Shown: positions 24,047 through 28,791 of the stretch, piece by piece
How positions within the stretch are numbered: the first letter of the stretch is position 1
Layout: the number at the start of each line of letters is the position of its first letter
DNA from: Escherichia phage RB3
Length of the DNA stretch: 64,000 nt
Reading direction: 5' to 3' (one strand)
Sequence record: KM606994
Notes under the pieces: generated by a model
Database searches by the model: none
What the model was told of the DNA's origin: nothing
Seen by the model: only the letters and a program-made list of their open reading frames with translations
Program-made: the position numbers and the translations under genes

Positions 24047-24433
24047 CTATTCGAGGGAAAGAAGATATTTACTTTGGTAAAACATTCCAGTAATATCATC
24101 TATCGTGCTTTGGATGGCTGGAGGCATTTCTTTATAAATGCTGTTAGATTGGTCTAGTATGCGATCAATCATTTTAATTGTGTCGGTAGGAAGTTTACTG
24201 GCATCTGGAATTGAAGGCGTGTATTTTCTACCAGAATACCCCAAATATTGCTCACCAAATTTATCAATCAAATCTGGCAACTCGGAGAAAATAAAATCGT
24301 ATGCTTTGTGTCTAGCATAACTTTTAGTTTCAAAATGTGCAGAATGAAAATAAGCTTGTGCAGCCATTAATAAACCTAAGTATTCATCTGCCTTTGAAGG
24401 TTTTCCACTTTGTGAAAAGTCGCTGAATTTCAT
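24047..24433 (-). CDS. Hypothetical protein (rI.-1 position)
   Basis: 128-aa ORF overlapping the rI stop. Confidence 0.5.
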
Positions 24434-24723
24434 TCAGTCTCCAATTTAATGTTCATAATTCTAGCGTATGATTGTGCCATCTCCGCGCCTCGTTCTATAC
24501 ATTCAAAATCAGAAGAGCACGGGTCATTTTTATAGGTCGTTCTCATAAAACTATAGAATTGTTCAGACGATTCTACGCTTTTATTTTCAAAAAGCATATA
24601 AACGTGCCTAATACCAGATTCCATAAATTTATCAAAATGAGGATCGACATTCGCTTCAATTGGTGGAGATAAAGCAAATGACAATCCTAGCATGGCAAAT
24701 AGTGCCGTTGCTTTTAAGGCCAT
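24430..24723 (-). CDS. rI: Lysis inhibition regulator rI
   Basis: 97 aa with an N-terminal signal-anchor; sequence (MALKATALFAMLGLSF...) matches my memory of T4 RI. Confidence 0.85.
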   Translation of the reverse strand: MALKATALFAMLGLSFALSPPIEANVDPHFDKFMESGIRHVYMLFENKSVESSEQFYSFMRTTYKNDPCSSDFECIERGAEMAQSYARIMNIKLETE

Positions 24724-24735
24724 AAAGGCCTCCTA

Positions 24736-24948
24736 TCATTTTTGTCCTGTATTTACTTTATGCCGATGCACGGCCTTAACTTTATCAAGGTATTTTTCAA
24801 AATTTCGCAATCTAGTATAGTCTGCCGGAGATTGGTTGAGTGATACTTCTCGACGCAAAGCTGAAATGATATTTCCAACTTCCCTACGAATTTCATCTAA
24901 TTGAAGCACAGTAAGATTGCGAAGTTGCTTTTCAGTTAATTGTAGCAT
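24736..24948 (-). CDS. Hypothetical small protein
   Basis: 70-aa ORF. Confidence 0.45.
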
Positions 24949-24990
24949 ATATACCCCTTTAGTTAGATAAACCTATTTATAACTTTTGCA

Positions 24991-25572
24991 CTAACCGAGC
25001 TTTTTAGTTAATTCATTCCAATGTTTTCTACACAAAGAAACATAAATTTCATCACCAATACAGATTTGATTACCTTCTTTAACTGGTGTTCCATCTTCCA
25101 TTAATCGAGCTGTCATAATCGCTTTTTTACCGCAATGACAAACTGCCTTTAGTTCAATAAGTTTATCTGCAATCGCTAAAAGTTCTTTAGAACCTTCAAA
25201 TAATTTTCCAGCGAAATCAGTCCTTAATCCATAAGCCATAACAGGAACATTATATGTATCAACAATTCGACTTAATTGATGCACCTGTTCAGTTTTTAAA
25301 AATTGGGCTTCATCTACAAATACGCAATGAATATCTTTTTGTGCTTCAGCCCATTTATAGAACTCGAAAATATCCATATCATCTGTAATAATATTCGCTT
25401 CCTGTTTAATTCCAATGCGAGAAACAACTTCACAGACAGAATCGCGAGTATCAATAGCGGGTTTAAGAACTAATACACTCATTCCACGTTCTTTATAATT
25501 ATGTGCGGCAGTCAAAAGAGAAGCAGATTTTCCAGCATTCATTGCTGCATAAGTAAAAATTAAACTCGCCAT
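24991..25572 (-). CDS. tk: Thymidine kinase
   Basis: 193 aa; P-loop AAMNAGKS and C-terminal Zn-ribbon cysteines; T4 Tk-like. Confidence 0.9.
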   Translation of the reverse strand: MASLIFTYAAMNAGKSASLLTAAHNYKERGMSVLVLKPAIDTRDSVCEVVSRIGIKQEANIITDDMDIFEFYKWAEAQKDIHCVFVDEAQFLKTEQVHQLSRIVDTYNVPVMAYGLRTDFAGKLFEGSKELLAIADKLIELKAVCHCGKKAIMTARLMEDGTPVKEGNQICIGDEIYVSLCRKHWNELTKKLG

Positions 25573-25581
25573 ATCACCTTC

Positions 25582-25767
25582 TTAAAGCGTATTCACATAA
25601 GCTATTAATTCATTTTCTTTCTTATCAAACCGATCAGCAAATTCTTCCTGCTGTTCGGGAGATAACGGGCCGTATTCATCATAAAAGGTGTTTGCTTCTG
25701 TATGCTCATCTAGAAGTTCATGGATAAGCTCAAATAATTTATCTTTTTGTTCTTTACTCAGACTCAT
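25582..25767 (-). CDS. Hypothetical acidic small protein
   Basis: 61-aa ORF. Confidence 0.45.
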   Translation of the reverse strand: MSLSKEQKDKLFELIHELLDEHTEANTFYDEYGPLSPEQQEEFADRFDKKENELIAYVNTL

Positions 25768-25933
25768 ATATTAATTTCCAGGAGTTTTAAAATAATTCGC
25801 TTTTGCTTAAATATTTCCATAGTTAAATGACCAGTATCTTTTTGACCGATTCCAATGGCAAAACCTTTATTAACAGCGAGTTCAATTAAATTATCAAGCT
25901 CACGTAACACTTCGTATTGTAACTCAAAACTAT

Positions 25934-26146
25934 TCATTTTGGTTTACCTTCTTTAACGAAATCTGGATAAGGATAAAATCCCGAATAAAATCCTTCACCT
26001 TTATGATTGATACATCCTTTATTAGAACAATAGCACCAATAATCGAAATCACAAGCCATTTCATCGTTGCATAAAGCAAAAACAACCGGCCACTTACACT
26101 TTTCACAATGGGCATTTTTAAGAATACTAGTTTGGCTCATAACCAT
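25934..26146 (-). CDS. Cysteine-rich small protein (putative Zn-binding)
   Basis: 70 aa with about 10 Cys, including CEKC and CYC. Confidence 0.45.
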   Translation of the reverse strand: MVMSQTSILKNAHCEKCKWPVVFALCNDEMACDFDYWCYCSNKGCINHKGEGFYSGFYPYPDFVKEGKPK

Positions 26147-26349
26147 GTCACCTTTAAGCAGTATTCTTCTACATGCTGTTTACGACCTTTCTTATCAATA
26201 AAGGTATATTCAACGAATGTTCCAATGTAGTCTTTATCTACATCATGTAGGCTATTAATTGGGCATTTAGTACGGCAAATGCGTTCCCATTGACGAATAA
26301 TTTCTGCTTTGTTTTTAGGATCAAACGGATGCGGGTAATGCACTTTCAT
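26137..26349 (-). CDS. Hypothetical small protein
   Basis: 70-aa ORF. Confidence 0.45.
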   Translation of the reverse strand: MKVHYPHPFDPKNKAEIIRQWERICRTKCPINSLHDVDKDYIGTFVEYTFIDKKGRKQHVEEYCLKVTWL

Positions 26350-26800
26350 AATCCACCACTATTAAATCAATATCAGGAGTAAACATGTCGATTAATTTAG
26401 AAACCTTATCCCAATCACCGCCAGCAATACCACAACCTATGCGTGGAATGTAAATTACTGGTTTAAACAAAAGGGTTTCTGCCTGTAGATTTAATTCTAT
26501 CATGCAGTTTACTAAAGCACCATAATCAAGATTAGGACCTGGTTCGTATTGCGTATACAAGTTATAACATATGCCAAAACCATTAGGTTTATGTTTAAAA
26601 ACAATAGACATATCACCGAGTTTTTCACGCGAACCATATTCAGTAGTAGTTTTATCTATTTCTAAAATTTTAGGATAGGCCCTTGCTAATTGACCCGCTA
26701 CACCTGAACCCATAGTATGAAAACAGTTACACCCGTGCGCAATAATATTACCTTCAAGAAAGAGGGCGACAATATCGCCCTTGATATATTTTACAATCAT
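26321..26800 (-). CDS. Macro-domain protein (ADP-ribose binding/hydrolase fold)
   Basis: 159 aa; KGDI...IIAHGCNCFHTMGSGVAGQLA and IPRIGCGIAGGDW resemble macrodomain motifs. Confidence 0.6.
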   Translation of the reverse strand: MIVKYIKGDIVALFLEGNIIAHGCNCFHTMGSGVAGQLARAYPKILEIDKTTTEYGSREKLGDMSIVFKHKPNGFGICYNLYTQYEPGPNLDYGALVNCMIELNLQAETLLFKPVIYIPRIGCGIAGGDWDKVSKLIDMFTPDIDLIVVDYESALPASV

Positions 26801-27144
26801 CTAGTACTCAATCCTCGATTATAAGAATCTACCAAACGGTCAACCATTGAATGACAAGCGGCTTTATCTTTCTCCTCCGCAACTGAACATTCTAAGGTAT
26901 TCCACTTTTTAGCATATCGTTTTAATAATGTATCGTTTTTGTATCTGCTTGATTTATCTCTTTCTCCGTCTTTATATGCATATATTAATTTCTGCGCAAA
27001 TTCAGCTTGGCATGCTTTATTTTTCCCACAATAATCTGCCGCAGTGCGATTTACATATTCTCTAATTTCAGTATATGATGTATCTGCTGACGCAGAAGCA
27101 GAAAATGAAATTAATCCTATACATAAAACCAAAATTTTAGTCAT
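26797..27144 (-). CDS. Small secreted/periplasmic protein
   Basis: 115 aa with an N-terminal signal peptide (MTKILVLCIGLISFSASASA). Confidence 0.5.
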   Translation of the reverse strand: MTKILVLCIGLISFSASASADTSYTEIREYVNRTAADYCGKNKACQAEFAQKLIYAYKDGERDKSSRYKNDTLLKRYAKKWNTLECSVAEEKDKAACHSMVDRLVDSYNRGLSTR

Positions 27145-27682
27145 TTACTATTTCCAAAAGTTTATTATTTTTAAGATAATTAGCCTTTTCTAGGACTTCA
27201 GAAGCATATTTAGAACCAGCTTTAACATTCCATCCCGAATTATAAGAGGATATTGCTTTTCTTATATCTCCCTTGTGTATATTTAACCAATAAGAAAGTT
27301 CAATGTACGCCCAGGAAGCTGAATTGGATCGTTTATTCAACATTCTTTTTATTTCAGCATCGGTCATATTATAACCAAGTTCCTTAACTCTCGCTCGCAT
27401 AGTAGGCAAATAATTTTGGAACATTCCGTAGGCGTGATGCTTTGGTTTAGATTTTAAATTAACTCCGCCAGAGCTTTCTTGCCATAAAATAGCAGCCATT
27501 ATATGACCTAATCCGCTCTTGTGGATATTTTTGTGTGTTTTATATTTTCCATCCTTAGAAAATTGTTCCCCGAATTGATACGCGTAACGCATGTTATCGA
27601 GTTGGACATTACTGAAAGTATGCTCGGAGCTATGTGCCATCATTGAAATGGCCAATAGACCAGCGAGTAGTGCTTTTCTCAT
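27137..27682 (-). CDS. Lytic transglycosylase-like protein (SLT domain) with signal peptide
   Basis: 181 aa; signal peptide plus SLT-like ILWQESSGG and AYGMFQ motifs. Confidence 0.6.
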   Translation of the reverse strand: MRKALLAGLLAISMMAHSSEHTFSNVQLDNMRYAYQFGEQFSKDGKYKTHKNIHKSGLGHIMAAILWQESSGGVNLKSKPKHHAYGMFQNYLPTMRARVKELGYNMTDAEIKRMLNKRSNSASWAYIELSYWLNIHKGDIRKAISSYNSGWNVKAGSKYASEVLEKANYLKNNKLLEIVND

Positions 27683-27689
27683 GCTTACC

Positions 27690-28151
27690 TCATTGAGTTT
27701 TAATTACTGCTTTAGAAGCCTTTCCTGGTAAACGACGACTGTTAATAATTGCCATCCTGCATTGAAGCGACGGGTCTTTGAACTTCGCATTAGGTTTACA
27801 AACTGTAAATCCAAGCCAAAGATTTCCATCTGTGATTTCTAAACGTCCAGGACGATATTCAACCCCATCAATAAAATCCTCGTCAATGTCAGGACGCGGA
27901 GGCATACTCAGGGATTCATTAACTTCTAAAACATGGTCTTTTATTTTATGGAATAATTCAAAAACATATGTCTCATCAATCTCCCGTTGAATTGCGCGAT
28001 CAAGAAGATGTTGAGAATATTTTAGATGAAACGATGAGACTCCTGCTGCTTTTGATGCCTCACGAATCTCATTGTTAATTTGACGAAACTCCGACTCAAA
28101 GTGACGACGAAGCTTATTTCGACGGATAAAAACTTCTGTATTGATAGTCAT
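27690..28151 (-). CDS. regB: Endoribonuclease RegB
   Basis: 153 aa; sequence (MTINTEVFIRRNKLRRHFESEFRQINNEIREASKAAG...) matches my memory of T4 RegB. Confidence 0.85.
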   Translation of the reverse strand: MTINTEVFIRRNKLRRHFESEFRQINNEIREASKAAGVSSFHLKYSQHLLDRAIQREIDETYVFELFHKIKDHVLEVNESLSMPPRPDIDEDFIDGVEYRPGRLEITDGNLWLGFTVCKPNAKFKDPSLQCRMAIINSRRLPGKASKAVIKTQ

Positions 28152-28178
28152 GTTATTCTCCTCTTAACTGATAGAAAA

Positions 28179-28208
28179 ATTATACCACAGTCAAGAGGAA
28201 AAGTAAAC
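28179..28208 (-). promoter_or_regulatory. T4-type early promoter upstream of regB
   Basis: Minus strand GTTTAC-spacer-TGGTATAAT. Confidence 0.65.
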
Positions 28209-28210
28209 AG

Positions 28211-28489
28211 TTATTCTTTAAATCTGATCAATTTATTCATAGACTTTGAAACTTCTGCACGAACCTCATGTAGATTTTTGAGCTGTTCAAGACGCTGCGC
28301 ATAGTAAGCAATTTCATCTTCTTCGAGACAGTCCTGTGAATCTTCTTTAAGATAACGCGCATAGTCCTGGAAAGCATTACGAATTACTTCTTGGAAGTCA
28401 TCAAGACTTTGAATTTTCTTAGGAGCAGCAGATACACGACGAGGGGCAGTATAATACTCATAACCAAACCCTGCGCTTAATTGAGCCAT
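28211..28489 (-). CDS. Hypothetical small acidic protein
   Basis: Start at the internal Met ([13 protein letters not shown]...), coupled to the upstream stop. Confidence 0.45.
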
Positions 28490-28791
28490 TAGTATTTTTC
28501 CTCTGGTTGGAACACAGCACGGCAAGCCCACATACTGGCTTCTTTGAGTTTCGTTTTAGCAATAGTTAACTGATCGAGGCTTTCAGCATAATTCTTCGCG
28601 AGTTCATCATCTTCACAGCTATCGAATGCTTCCCAGAATTCATCGTATAAAGCATCAAAGATAAGTCCTAAACGAACTTCAGCGTCTTTGATAGCATTCA
28701 CTTTACCGATTTTCTCTTCAGTATGCGGCTTATAACCTTTAATGTCTTCAATCATATTTGACTTCCTCACCAGTACATAAATCATATTCAA
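28489..28791 (-). CDS. Hypothetical small acidic protein
   Basis: 100-aa ORF; start uncertain (three in-frame Met). Confidence 0.45.

What the first reader, a model, noticed from the sequence alone, without database searches (positions are those of the whole stretch)
26321..26800. Macro-domain protein in the tk-regB interval
A 159-aa early protein carries motifs typical of ADP-ribose-binding/hydrolysing macrodomains (KGDI...IIAHGCNCFHTMGSGVAGQLA and IPRIGCGIAGGDW). T-even phages encode ADP-ribosyltransferases (Alt, ModA, ModB), and hosts use ADP-ribosylating defences such as DarT, so a macrodomain could tune the phage's own modifications or erase defensive DNA or protein ADP-ribosylation.
Basis: partly seen in the sequence, partly recalled or inferred. 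Interest (0 to 1): 0.5.

Follow-up and report, generated by a model that had tools for sequence, protein, structure and literature searches.

The report
Phage Tk.4 macrodomain, anti-DarT2 factor

Summary
The ORF is real: window 26321..26800, minus strand, 159 aa, with both quoted motifs. The window is 100% identical to phages RB5/RB6/RB7/RB9/RB10, where this gene is annotated tk.4.

It is a macrodomain:
- Pfam Macro scores 34.4 bits against a cut-off of 22.
- The AlphaFold2 model has pLDDT 94.6.

It therefore belongs to the TARG1/ALC1-like class, whose tested members reverse thymine-linked DNA ADP-ribosylation made by DarT.

A 2025 preprint found T4 tk.4 as the only transposon hit against DarTG2. 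A clean knockout sensitised T4, and the gene was named adfM.

Three points go beyond that paper:
- The window allele is only 58% identical to the T2/T4/T6 allele. It sits as a divergent cassette between flanks that are 92-99% identical.
- The family has an invariant Gln84 where DarG, TARG1 and PhiKZ AdfM have the catalytic Lys. This matches SCO6735, where that Gln is essential.
- The closest bacterial relatives are not next to DarT.

No enzyme activity has been shown for any Tk.4 protein. Low-to-moderate interest.

The parts
26321..26800 (-). tk.4 (adfM-type) coding sequence, 159 aa plus stop; single macrodomain
   Evidence: ORF list and re-translation. Annotated tk.4 in RB5. Pfam Macro. AF2 model pLDDT 94.6.
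26797..26800 (-). ATGA overlap: the tk.4 start codon overlaps the vs stop codon, suggesting translational coupling. A GAGG lies 13 nt upstream.
   Evidence: Sequence read directly. The same arrangement is seen in T4 coordinates.
26696..26800 (-). Codons 1-35: the conserved 5' segment, 89.5% nucleotide identity to T4
   Evidence: Pairwise DNA alignment and per-segment identities.
26324..26695 (-). Codons 36-159: divergent allele cassette, 57.5% nucleotide identity to T4. It lies between vs (98.9% identical) and tk.3 (91.5% identical).
   Evidence: This allele body is found in about 339 phage records, including JS98 at 88%. T2, T4 and T6 carry the other allele.
26723..26737 (-). H22-G-C-N25-C26 motif. 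Asn25 is the counterpart of DarG N22, PhiKZ AdfM N23 and SCO6735 N27. His22 is the counterpart of Poa1p H23.
   Evidence: Invariant in 76 family members. hhalign against DarG-type sequences. Alignment with Poa1p. Translation check.
26693..26713 (-). M30-G-S-G-V-A-G36: Gly-rich loop after the second strand (the GxG motif of macrodomains)
   Evidence: G33 and A35 are invariant; M30 and G31 are nearly invariant. Aligned to the DarG 'VMGKGIA' segment.
26549..26563 (-). N80-L-Y-T-Q84. Gln84 occupies the position of the catalytic Lys of DarG (K80), TARG1 (K84) and PhiKZ AdfM (K78), as Gln85 does in SCO6735.
   Evidence: N80, Y82 and Q84 are invariant. Aligned columns are shown. Of 80 bacterial relatives, 79 keep N-x-Y-[TS]-Q, and this motif was not used to find them.
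26411..26446 (-). P119-R-I-G-C-G-I-A-G-G-D-W130: diphosphate-binding loop. Ala126 sits where TARG1 has the catalytic Asp125.
   Evidence: P119, G122, G124 and W130 are invariant. Alignment to TARG1 'PRIGCGLDRLQW'.
26321..26349 (-). 29-nt overlap between the 3' end of tk.4 (the extra C-terminal residues ...LPASV) and the start of tk.3
   Evidence: ORF coordinates. In T4 the overlap is only 4 nt.

Best explanation
This is the RB5-lineage allele of T-even gene tk.4, named adfM in T4. It is a free-standing macrodomain of the TARG1/ALC1-like class, about 150 residues long. It appears to be made as part of the regB-vs.1-vs-tk.4 gene string and is translationally coupled to vs through an ATGA overlap.

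Most likely mechanism: the bacterial toxin DarT2 attaches ADP-ribose to thymines in single-stranded phage DNA. The protein binds that ADP-ribose in its cleft and hydrolyses the ribose-thymine N-glycosidic bond. This releases free ADP-ribose and restores a replicable template, which neutralises DarTG2 defence.

Catalysis probably does not use the Lys of DarG and TARG1. As in SCO6735, an invariant Gln (Gln84), held in place by an invariant Asn (Asn25), would position the distal ribose for attack by water.

Shown here: the ORF, the fold, the class, the residue equivalences, and orthology with T4 tk.4 by synteny.
Shown by others: T4 tk.4 is needed to resist DarTG2, and SCO6735, DarG, TARG1 and PhiKZ AdfM cleave thymine-linked ADP-ribose on DNA.
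Inferred: this allele does the same, and it does so enzymatically.
For: Fold and class:
- Pfam Macro scores above its cut-off.
- A family profile hits BT1257 at 6e-20, TARG1 at 4e-17, SCO6735 at 5e-16, Poa1p at 2.5e-15, Mtb DarG at 2e-12 and Taq DarG at 3e-11. MacroD-type and viral macrodomains score only about 2e-3.
- The AF2 model has pLDDT 94.6 and pTM 0.89.
- The top Foldseek hits are TARG1, BT1257, Poa1p and DarG.
- hhalign against DarG-type sequences gives probability 98.8% and E=1e-16.

Orthology: the gene occupies the same slot between vs and tk.3 as T4 tk.4, with 58% amino-acid identity over the full length.

Genetics in T4: tk.4 was the single hit against DarTG2, and a clean knockout was sensitised (10.1101/2025.11.20.689424).

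Class-wide activity:
- SCO6735, DarG and TARG1 all reverse DarT thymidine ADP-ribosylation.
- SCO6735 has Gln85 at the Lys position. Its Q85A mutant is dead and its N27S mutant nearly dead (PMC9411070).
- PhiKZ AdfM removes DarT2 ADP-ribose from DNA in vitro (PMC13309987).

Conservation: H22, N25, Q84, G122, G124 and W130 are invariant in 76 homologues. The Q motif is kept in 79 of 80 bacterial relatives.
Against: - No biochemical assay exists for any Tk.4 protein. The T4 evidence is genetic and comes from one preprint.
- The window allele differs from the tested T2/T4/T6 allele at 42% of residues. The differences include the diphosphate loop: GCGIAGGDW here against GAGIGKGNW in T4.
- The catalytic Lys of DarG is absent.
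- The protein scores only 28 bits on the DarG models, against 133-138 bits for PhiKZ AdfM.
- It lacks the longer Lys-bearing 'mobile loop' that was proposed to help SCO6735 bind DNA. There is a gap at that point in the alignment, and the loop here is acidic (YEPGPNLDY).
- Its closest bacterial relatives are not paired with DarT.

The natural substrate could therefore be broader than, or different from, DarT2 products.
Confidence: 0.7

Rival explanations
1. It processes small soluble ADP-ribose derivatives rather than DNA adducts. Candidates are ADP-ribose-1''-phosphate (as yeast Poa1p does, which is the source of the old 'A1pp phosphatase' annotation), O-acetyl-ADP-ribose, or ADP-ribose-derived immune signals.
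For: - T4 Tk.4 is annotated 'phosphatase; contains A1pp phosphatase motif', and PHROG 335 is labelled 'phosphatase'.
- His22 aligns with Poa1p His23, a residue its crystallographers chose to mutate.
- Iyer and Aravind argued that phage macrodomains mainly target low-molecular-weight ADP-ribose derivatives (PMC9503650).
- A few bacterial relatives sit beside NAD-salvage genes (NAPRTase, NAMPT) or NADAR genes.
Against: - The only phenotype reported for the T4 orthologue is specific sensitivity to DarTG2, a DNA-modifying system.
- T4 has no known source of ADP-ribose-1''-phosphate; this rests on established knowledge of its Pnk/Rnl1 RNA-repair pathway, not on a test here.
- Other TARG1-class enzymes handle both small and macromolecular substrates, so this activity could coexist with DNA de-ADP-ribosylation rather than replace it.
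Confidence: 0.12
2. It reverses ADP-ribosylation of RNA. Targets could be uracil-linked ADP-ribose or adducts made by mRNA-modifying defence toxins. It would then protect phage transcripts rather than, or as well as, phage DNA.
For: TARG1 and SCO6735, both close structural relatives, efficiently hydrolyse uracil-linked ADP-ribose on RNA (PMC13036486). The gene sits among RNA-directed early functions (regB, vs).
Against: No RNA-directed phenotype is known. CmdTAC, an mRNA ADP-ribosyltransferase, is reported to defend robustly against T-even phages even though they carry tk.4 (abstract of PMC11618068). Tk.4 therefore does not neutralise that system.
Confidence: 0.08
3. It blocks DarT2 by binding it, or merely binds ADP-ribose, without catalysis.
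For: Catalytically dead SCO6735 Q85A still inhibits DarT by direct interaction, more strongly than DarG K80A or TARG1 K84A (PMC9411070). The window protein lacks the canonical catalytic Lys.
Against: The residues needed for SCO6735 catalysis (Asn and Gln) are invariant across phage and bacterial members. A pure binder would not be expected to conserve them. There is also no second DarT-binding domain like the one in DarG; the protein is 159 aa and single-domain.
Confidence: 0.05
4. It tunes or erases the phage's own ADP-ribosylation of host proteins or RNA by Alt, ModA and ModB.
For: T-even phages encode these transferases (established knowledge). Arginine-specific macrodomains exist: MavL (PMC10951314, title seen).
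Against: - Nothing MavL-like appears among the sequence or fold matches.
- TARG1-class enzymes are known for acidic-residue and nucleobase linkages, not arginine (established knowledge; PMC9411070).
- The T4 screen found tk.4 conditionally important only when DarTG2 was present.
- Relatives occur in many phages and bacteria that lack Alt/Mod homologues.
Confidence: 0.05

Closest known systems
T4 Tk.4 = AdfM (NP_049723; bioRxiv 10.1101/2025.11.20.689424)
   Same: It occupies the same genomic slot (vs | tk.4 | tk.3) and has the same length class and fold. All invariant residues are shared (H22, N25, Q84, G122, G124, W130). It is the orthologue.
   Different: It is only 58% identical in amino acids, and 57.5% in nucleotides over codons 36-159, despite 92-99% identical flanks. 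Its diphosphate loop is GCGIAGGDW against GAGIGKGNW in T4. It has 4 extra C-terminal residues that overlap tk.3. This allele has not been tested against DarTG2.
SCO6735 (S. coelicolor, PDB 5E3B) and BT1257 (PDB 2FG1/2AFC): Gln-type TARG1/ALC1-like macrodomains
   Different: Identity is about 26-29%. The Tk.4 family lacks their 5-6-residue longer 'mobile loop' with its DNA-binding lysines (gap). The loop here is short and acidic, with the same length as in TARG1 and DarG.
DarG antitoxin macrodomain (Taq 5M31/5M3E, Mtb 5M3I) and PhiKZ gp104 AdfM
   Different: The catalytic Lys80 is replaced by Gln84. There is no C-terminal DarT-binding domain. DarG HMM scores are 28 bits, against 133-138 bits for PhiKZ gp104. 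Pairwise BLAST to PhiKZ gp104 aligns only 31 residues at E=0.001. The two proteins that now share the name AdfM therefore belong to different macrodomain subfamilies.
Human TARG1 (C6orf130, PDB 4J5S)
   Same: It is the top Foldseek hit (E 5e-10, TM 0.73-0.82). The profile E-value is 4e-17, with a gap-free alignment through the catalytic loop. TARG1 also reverses thymine- and uracil-linked ADP-ribosylation (PMC8501950 title; PMC13036486).
   Different: Both residues of the TARG1 catalytic dyad are absent: K84 corresponds to Gln84 and D125 to Ala126.
Yeast Poa1p (ADP-ribose-1''-phosphate phosphatase, PDB 6LFQ-6LFU)
   Different: Only two stretches align in the single-sequence search: residues 3-79, and 116-148 at E 6.2, which is not significant. 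No phosphatase substrate is known in T4 infection.

Membership tests
Macrodomain superfamily (Pfam PF01661) | Sequence profile match above the curated threshold across the whole domain | tested here: met
   34.4 bits against a gathering score of 22. Residues 22-136 match profile positions 2-117 of 118.
Macrodomain superfamily (Pfam PF01661) | Three-layer alpha/beta/alpha fold with a central mixed sheet, matching solved macrodomains | tested here: met
TARG1/ALC1-like macrodomain class | Closer to TARG1, DarG, SCO6735, BT1257 and Poa1p than to MacroD-type or PARG-type macrodomains | tested here: met
T-even Tk.4 / AdfM (T4-type anti-DarTG2 factor) | Orthologous position between vs and tk.3, with full-length homology to T4 Tk.4 | tested here: met
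   Synteny. 58% identity over 155 residues, E=5e-70.
T-even Tk.4 / AdfM (T4-type anti-DarTG2 factor) | Required for phage growth on a DarTG2-expressing host | not testable with these tools
   Shown only for the T4 allele (10.1101/2025.11.20.689424). T2, T4 and T6 share that allele, and the window carries the other one.
DarG antitoxin macrodomain (DarTG2) | Catalytic Lys (Taq K80) after the 'PT' of the fifth strand | tested here: not met
   Gln84 aligns to that Lys (hhalign) and is invariant in the family.
DarG antitoxin macrodomain (DarTG2) | Active-site Asn (Taq N22) | tested here: met
   Asn25 aligns to it and is invariant.
DarG antitoxin macrodomain (DarTG2) | Second, DarT-binding domain and a score above the DarG family threshold | tested here: not met
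   The protein is 159 aa and single-domain. NCBIfam antitoxin_DarG gives 28 bits against a cut-off of 250. PADLOC DarG gives 27.9 bits against 132.9 for PhiKZ gp104, and the match covers only positions 3-144 of the 329-position profile.
DarG antitoxin macrodomain (DarTG2) | Encoded next to a DarT toxin (in the cellular relatives) | tested here: not met
   No DarT appears among the families listed for the immediate neighbours of the 80 closest bacterial relatives, in either Pfam or PADLOC. Only the first 25 families per scan were shown, so a single weak hit cannot be excluded.
SCO6735/BT1257 subclass (Gln-type) | Gln in place of the catalytic Lys, plus the Asn that positions it | tested here: met
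   Q84 aligns with the BT1257 Gln and with TARG1 K84. The equivalence Q85 = K80 = K84 is stated in PMC9411070. SCO6735 itself was not aligned residue by residue here.
SCO6735/BT1257 subclass (Gln-type) | 'Mobile loop' five residues longer than in DarG and TARG1, carrying Lys89 and Lys94 | tested here: not met
   BT1257 has a 6-residue insertion relative to the Tk.4 family profile just after the Gln. The alignments to TARG1 and DarG have no gap there. The loop is Y-E-P-G-P-N-L-D-Y, with no Lys.
TARG1 | Lys84/Asp125 catalytic dyad | tested here: not met
   Gln84 and Ala126 occupy these columns.
Poa1p-type ADP-ribose-1''-phosphate phosphatase | Active-site His23 and Ser30 equivalents | tested here: inconclusive
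   His22 aligns with His23 and Thr29 with Ser30. That these residues matter is inferred only from the titles of the mutant structures. The central part of Poa1p did not align in the single-sequence search.
Any of the above | Hydrolase activity on a defined substrate | not testable with these tools
   No biochemical data exist for any Tk.4 protein in the papers searched.

The most novel reading that the evidence does not exclude
The T-even Tk.4 proteins are not captured DarG antitoxins. They form an independent, phage-rich branch of the TARG1-like class that has Gln at the catalytic position and a short loop. The two deeply diverged alleles (58% identity) are exchanged as a cassette between otherwise near-identical genomes. 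On this reading the alleles differ in what they counter, for example different DarT2 variants or DNA-thymine versus RNA-uracil adducts, and the exchange reflects an arms race at this locus.
Probability: 0.2. Interest if true: 0.55.

Novelty: already known. Interest (0 to 1): 0.25.

Why it matters
DarTG systems stop phages by ADP-ribosylating their DNA. T-even phages are now known to carry one eraser for each DarT type: the NADAR protein AdfN for guanine adducts and the macrodomain Tk.4/AdfM for thymine adducts. That explains their resistance.

For annotation, this gene should no longer be called 'hypothetical' or 'phosphatase' in RB5-like genomes.

Two questions remain open:
- Mechanism. This family has Gln rather than the DarG Lys, so it is a natural test of the water-mediated mechanism proposed for SCO6735.
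- Evolution. Two alleles at 58% identity circulate within one genus, and only one of them has been tested.

The name AdfM is also now used for two different macrodomain subfamilies (T4 Tk.4 and PhiKZ gp104), which could mislead homology-based annotation.

Tried and rejected
- DarG membership. The DarG HMMs do hit, but at 28 bits against 133-138 for a true DarG-like phage protein, and the catalytic Lys is missing. I rejected membership but kept 'works like DarG'.
- 'Orphan antitoxin' origin. I fetched the 80 closest bacterial relatives and scanned 141 immediate neighbour ORFs against Pfam and PADLOC. No DarT was listed and the neighbours are heterogeneous. ORF calling was a simple greedy scheme and only the top 25 families per scan are shown, so the negative is good but not absolute.
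- Internal terminator. The scan flagged a hairpin at 26763-26781 inside codons 7-13. Folding gave z = -0.93 against shuffles, so I rejected it as a significant structure.
- Promoter evidence for early expression. The scan found no more sigma-70-like sites than shuffled sequence. The 10/12 match with an extended -10 upstream of regB (28207..28179) is only a lead.
- Structure prediction. I repeated it without that row.
- SCO6735 and Poa1p alignment. I could not obtain the full SCO6735 or Poa1p sequences, so equivalence to SCO6735 Val25, Lys89 and Gly128 rests on the BT1257 alignment and on the paper's statements.
- TARG1-type covalent Lys/Asp mechanism. Rejected, because both residues are absent.

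Full report
**1. The observation**

The window holds an ORF at 26321..26800 on the minus strand. It has an ATG start and encodes 159 aa.

The 4.2-kb stretch I searched around the ORF (24400-28600) is 100% identical to phages RB5, RB6, RB7, RB9 and RB10 (Tequatrovirus). It is flanked by vs upstream and tk.3 downstream, within the tk-to-regB interval.

The start codon overlaps the vs stop codon as ATGA, and the 3' end overlaps the tk.3 start by 29 nt.

The ORF is clearly a real gene:
- 802 homologues, the best at E=1.3e-99.
- tblastn matches in 2,767 phage records.
- PHROG 335 at E=2.5e-71.

**2. What it is**

Pfam assigns a full-length Macro domain: 34.4 bits against a cut-off of 22.

I aligned 76 homologues at 38-80% identity. 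The invariant residues are H22, G23, N25, C26, G33, A35, N80, Y82, Q84, P119, G122, G124 and W130.

With that alignment AlphaFold2 gave a confident model, pLDDT 94.6 and pTM 0.89. Three searches place it in one class:
- Foldseek against the PDB puts TARG1, BT1257, Poa1p and the DarG macrodomains on top.
- A profile search of PDB sequences gives BT1257 6e-20, TARG1 4e-17, SCO6735 5e-16, Poa1p 2.5e-15 and DarG 2e-12 and 3e-11, against about 2e-3 for coronavirus and alphavirus macrodomains.

The protein therefore belongs to the TARG1/ALC1-like class. Within that class it is roughly equidistant from the characterised members.

**3. What is already known about it**

A literature search found a November 2025 preprint (10.1101/2025.11.20.689424). 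In it a T4 transposon library was grown on a DarTG2 host. The single significant hit was tk.4. A clean tk.4 deletion made T4 sensitive to DarTG2. The authors named the gene adfM and proposed, without testing, that it removes ADP-ribose from DNA.

A 2026 Cell Reports paper (PMC13309987) independently gave the name AdfM to PhiKZ gp104. It showed in vitro removal of DarT2 ADP-ribose from DNA, with N23 and K78 as active-site residues.

Earlier work showed that SCO6735, DarG and TARG1 all reverse DarT thymidine ADP-ribosylation (PMC9411070). TARG1 and SCO6735 also cleave uracil-linked ADP-ribose on RNA (PMC13036486).

No other paper in the library links tk.4 to DarT.

**4. Where this protein differs from those precedents**

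(a) It is not the allele that was tested.
- T4 Tk.4 is 58% identical to it, and T2 and T6 carry the T4-type allele.
- At the DNA level, vs is 98.9% identical to T4. Codons 1-35 of tk.4 are 89.5% identical, codons 36-159 only 57.5%, and tk.3 is 91.5%.
- The body of the gene is therefore a swapped cassette.
- The window-type cassette occurs in about 339 phage records, including JS98 at 88%.
- The window allele has the family-consensus diphosphate loop GCGIAGGDW. The T4 type has GAGIGKGNW.

(b) It is not a DarG-type macrodomain.
- PhiKZ gp104 hits Mtb DarG at 9e-25 and the DarG HMMs at 133-138 bits. The window protein scores 28 bits.
- The two 'AdfM' proteins align over only 31 residues by BLAST.
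- Profile-profile alignment (probability 98.8%) puts Asn25 on DarG Asn22 but Gln84 on the catalytic Lys80.
- Against TARG1, Gln84 falls on Lys84 and Ala126 on Asp125.

(c) The Gln is the signature of SCO6735 and BT1257.
- In SCO6735 the Q85A mutant is dead and N27S nearly dead, and a water-mediated mechanism was proposed.
- The Tk.4 family nevertheless lacks their longer, lysine-bearing mobile loop. There is a 6-residue gap, while the alignments to TARG1 and DarG have none.
- It is thus a Gln-type, short-loop branch.

(d) The 80 closest bacterial relatives are 34-43% identical and come from many phyla.
- Of these, 79 keep N-x-Y-[TS]-Q.
- None has a DarT gene listed among its immediate neighbours.
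- This branch does not look like a recently orphaned antitoxin.

**5. Mechanism**

Best-supported reading, confidence about 0.7: the protein binds ADP-ribose attached by DarT2 to thymine in single-stranded phage DNA and hydrolyses the N-glycosidic bond. Asn25 and Gln84 position the distal ribose.

The fold, the class, the residue equivalences and the orthology are shown here. The DarTG2 phenotype and the class-wide activity are shown by others. Activity of this allele is inferred.

Rival readings:
- Processing of small ADP-ribose derivatives, in the manner of Poa1p (0.12).
- Reversal of RNA ADP-ribosylation (0.08).
- Non-catalytic inhibition of DarT (0.05).
- Reversal of the phage's own Alt/Mod modifications (0.05).

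It fits neither the enzyme class nor the T4 screen.

**6. Verdict**

The macrodomain nature of Tk.4 has been in the T4 annotation for years ('A1pp phosphatase motif'). The anti-DarT role was published in 2025, so this is already known.

What remains open is modest: an untested divergent allele, a Gln-for-Lys active site, a name shared with an unrelated subfamily, and no biochemistry for any Tk.4 protein. Interest 0.25.

Noticed in passing
window 26324-26695 (and flanks 26137-27144): The body of tk.4 is a divergent cassette. It is 57.5% identical in nucleotides to T4, while vs is 98.9% and tk.3 91.5% identical. T2, T4 and T6 share one allele (155 aa). RB5-like phages and about 339 other records carry this one (159 aa).
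   Followed up: yes
window 25582-26146: Downstream of tk.3, three small minus-strand ORFs (61, 57 and 70 aa) stand where T4 has tk.1 and tk.2. The DNA is only about 50% alignable to T4 and has indels. The 70-aa ORF at 25934..26146 is Cys-rich (CEKC...C...C...CYC...C), like a small zinc-binding protein.
   Followed up: partly
window 26763-26781 (-): An 8-bp GC-rich hairpin followed by a T-rich stretch lies inside tk.4 codons 7-13 and was flagged as terminator-like. At least one related phage record annotates a 'terminator' in this region. Folding gave z = -0.93 against shuffles, so it is not significant by that test.
   Followed up: yes
window 28179-28207 (-): A sigma-70-like site (TTTACT, 17-nt spacer, TATAAT with an extended -10 TG; 10 of 12 matches) lies just upstream of regB. 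It could drive the regB-vs.1-vs-tk.4 string. Overall the region has no more such sites than shuffled sequence.
   Followed up: partly
L084:7135-7599 (phage T6 tk.4): T6 Tk.4 reads HTMKAGVAG where every other sequence in the eight-sequence comparison has HTMG[SA]G. A Lys therefore sits at the nearly invariant Gly31 of the ADP-ribose-binding loop. This could be a natural variant or a weakened allele.
   Followed up: no
L003-L082 (bacterial relatives): Bacterial members of this macrodomain branch are widespread (Ruegeria, Hyphomicrobiaceae, Verrucomicrobia, Desulfobacterales, Planctomycetota and others) and mostly stand alone. A few sit beside NAD-salvage genes (NAPRTase, NAMPT), NADAR genes, or AbiLi/AriA-like defence ATPases. 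In Ruegeria and Hyphomicrobiaceae a 1,050-1,285-aa ORF is a recurrent upstream neighbour; I did not identify it.
   Followed up: partly
literature (PMC13309987 and 10.1101/2025.11.20.689424): The name AdfM has been given independently to two proteins. PhiKZ gp104 is a true DarG-like macrodomain with the catalytic Lys. T4 Tk.4 is the Gln type and only distantly related. Homology-based transfer of the name between them is unsafe.
   Followed up: yes
window 26797-27144 (vs): The same T4 transposon study reports the neighbouring gene vs as the most strongly depleted gene in minimal glucose medium. The window's vs is 98.9% identical to T4's and is translationally coupled to tk.4.
   Followed up: no
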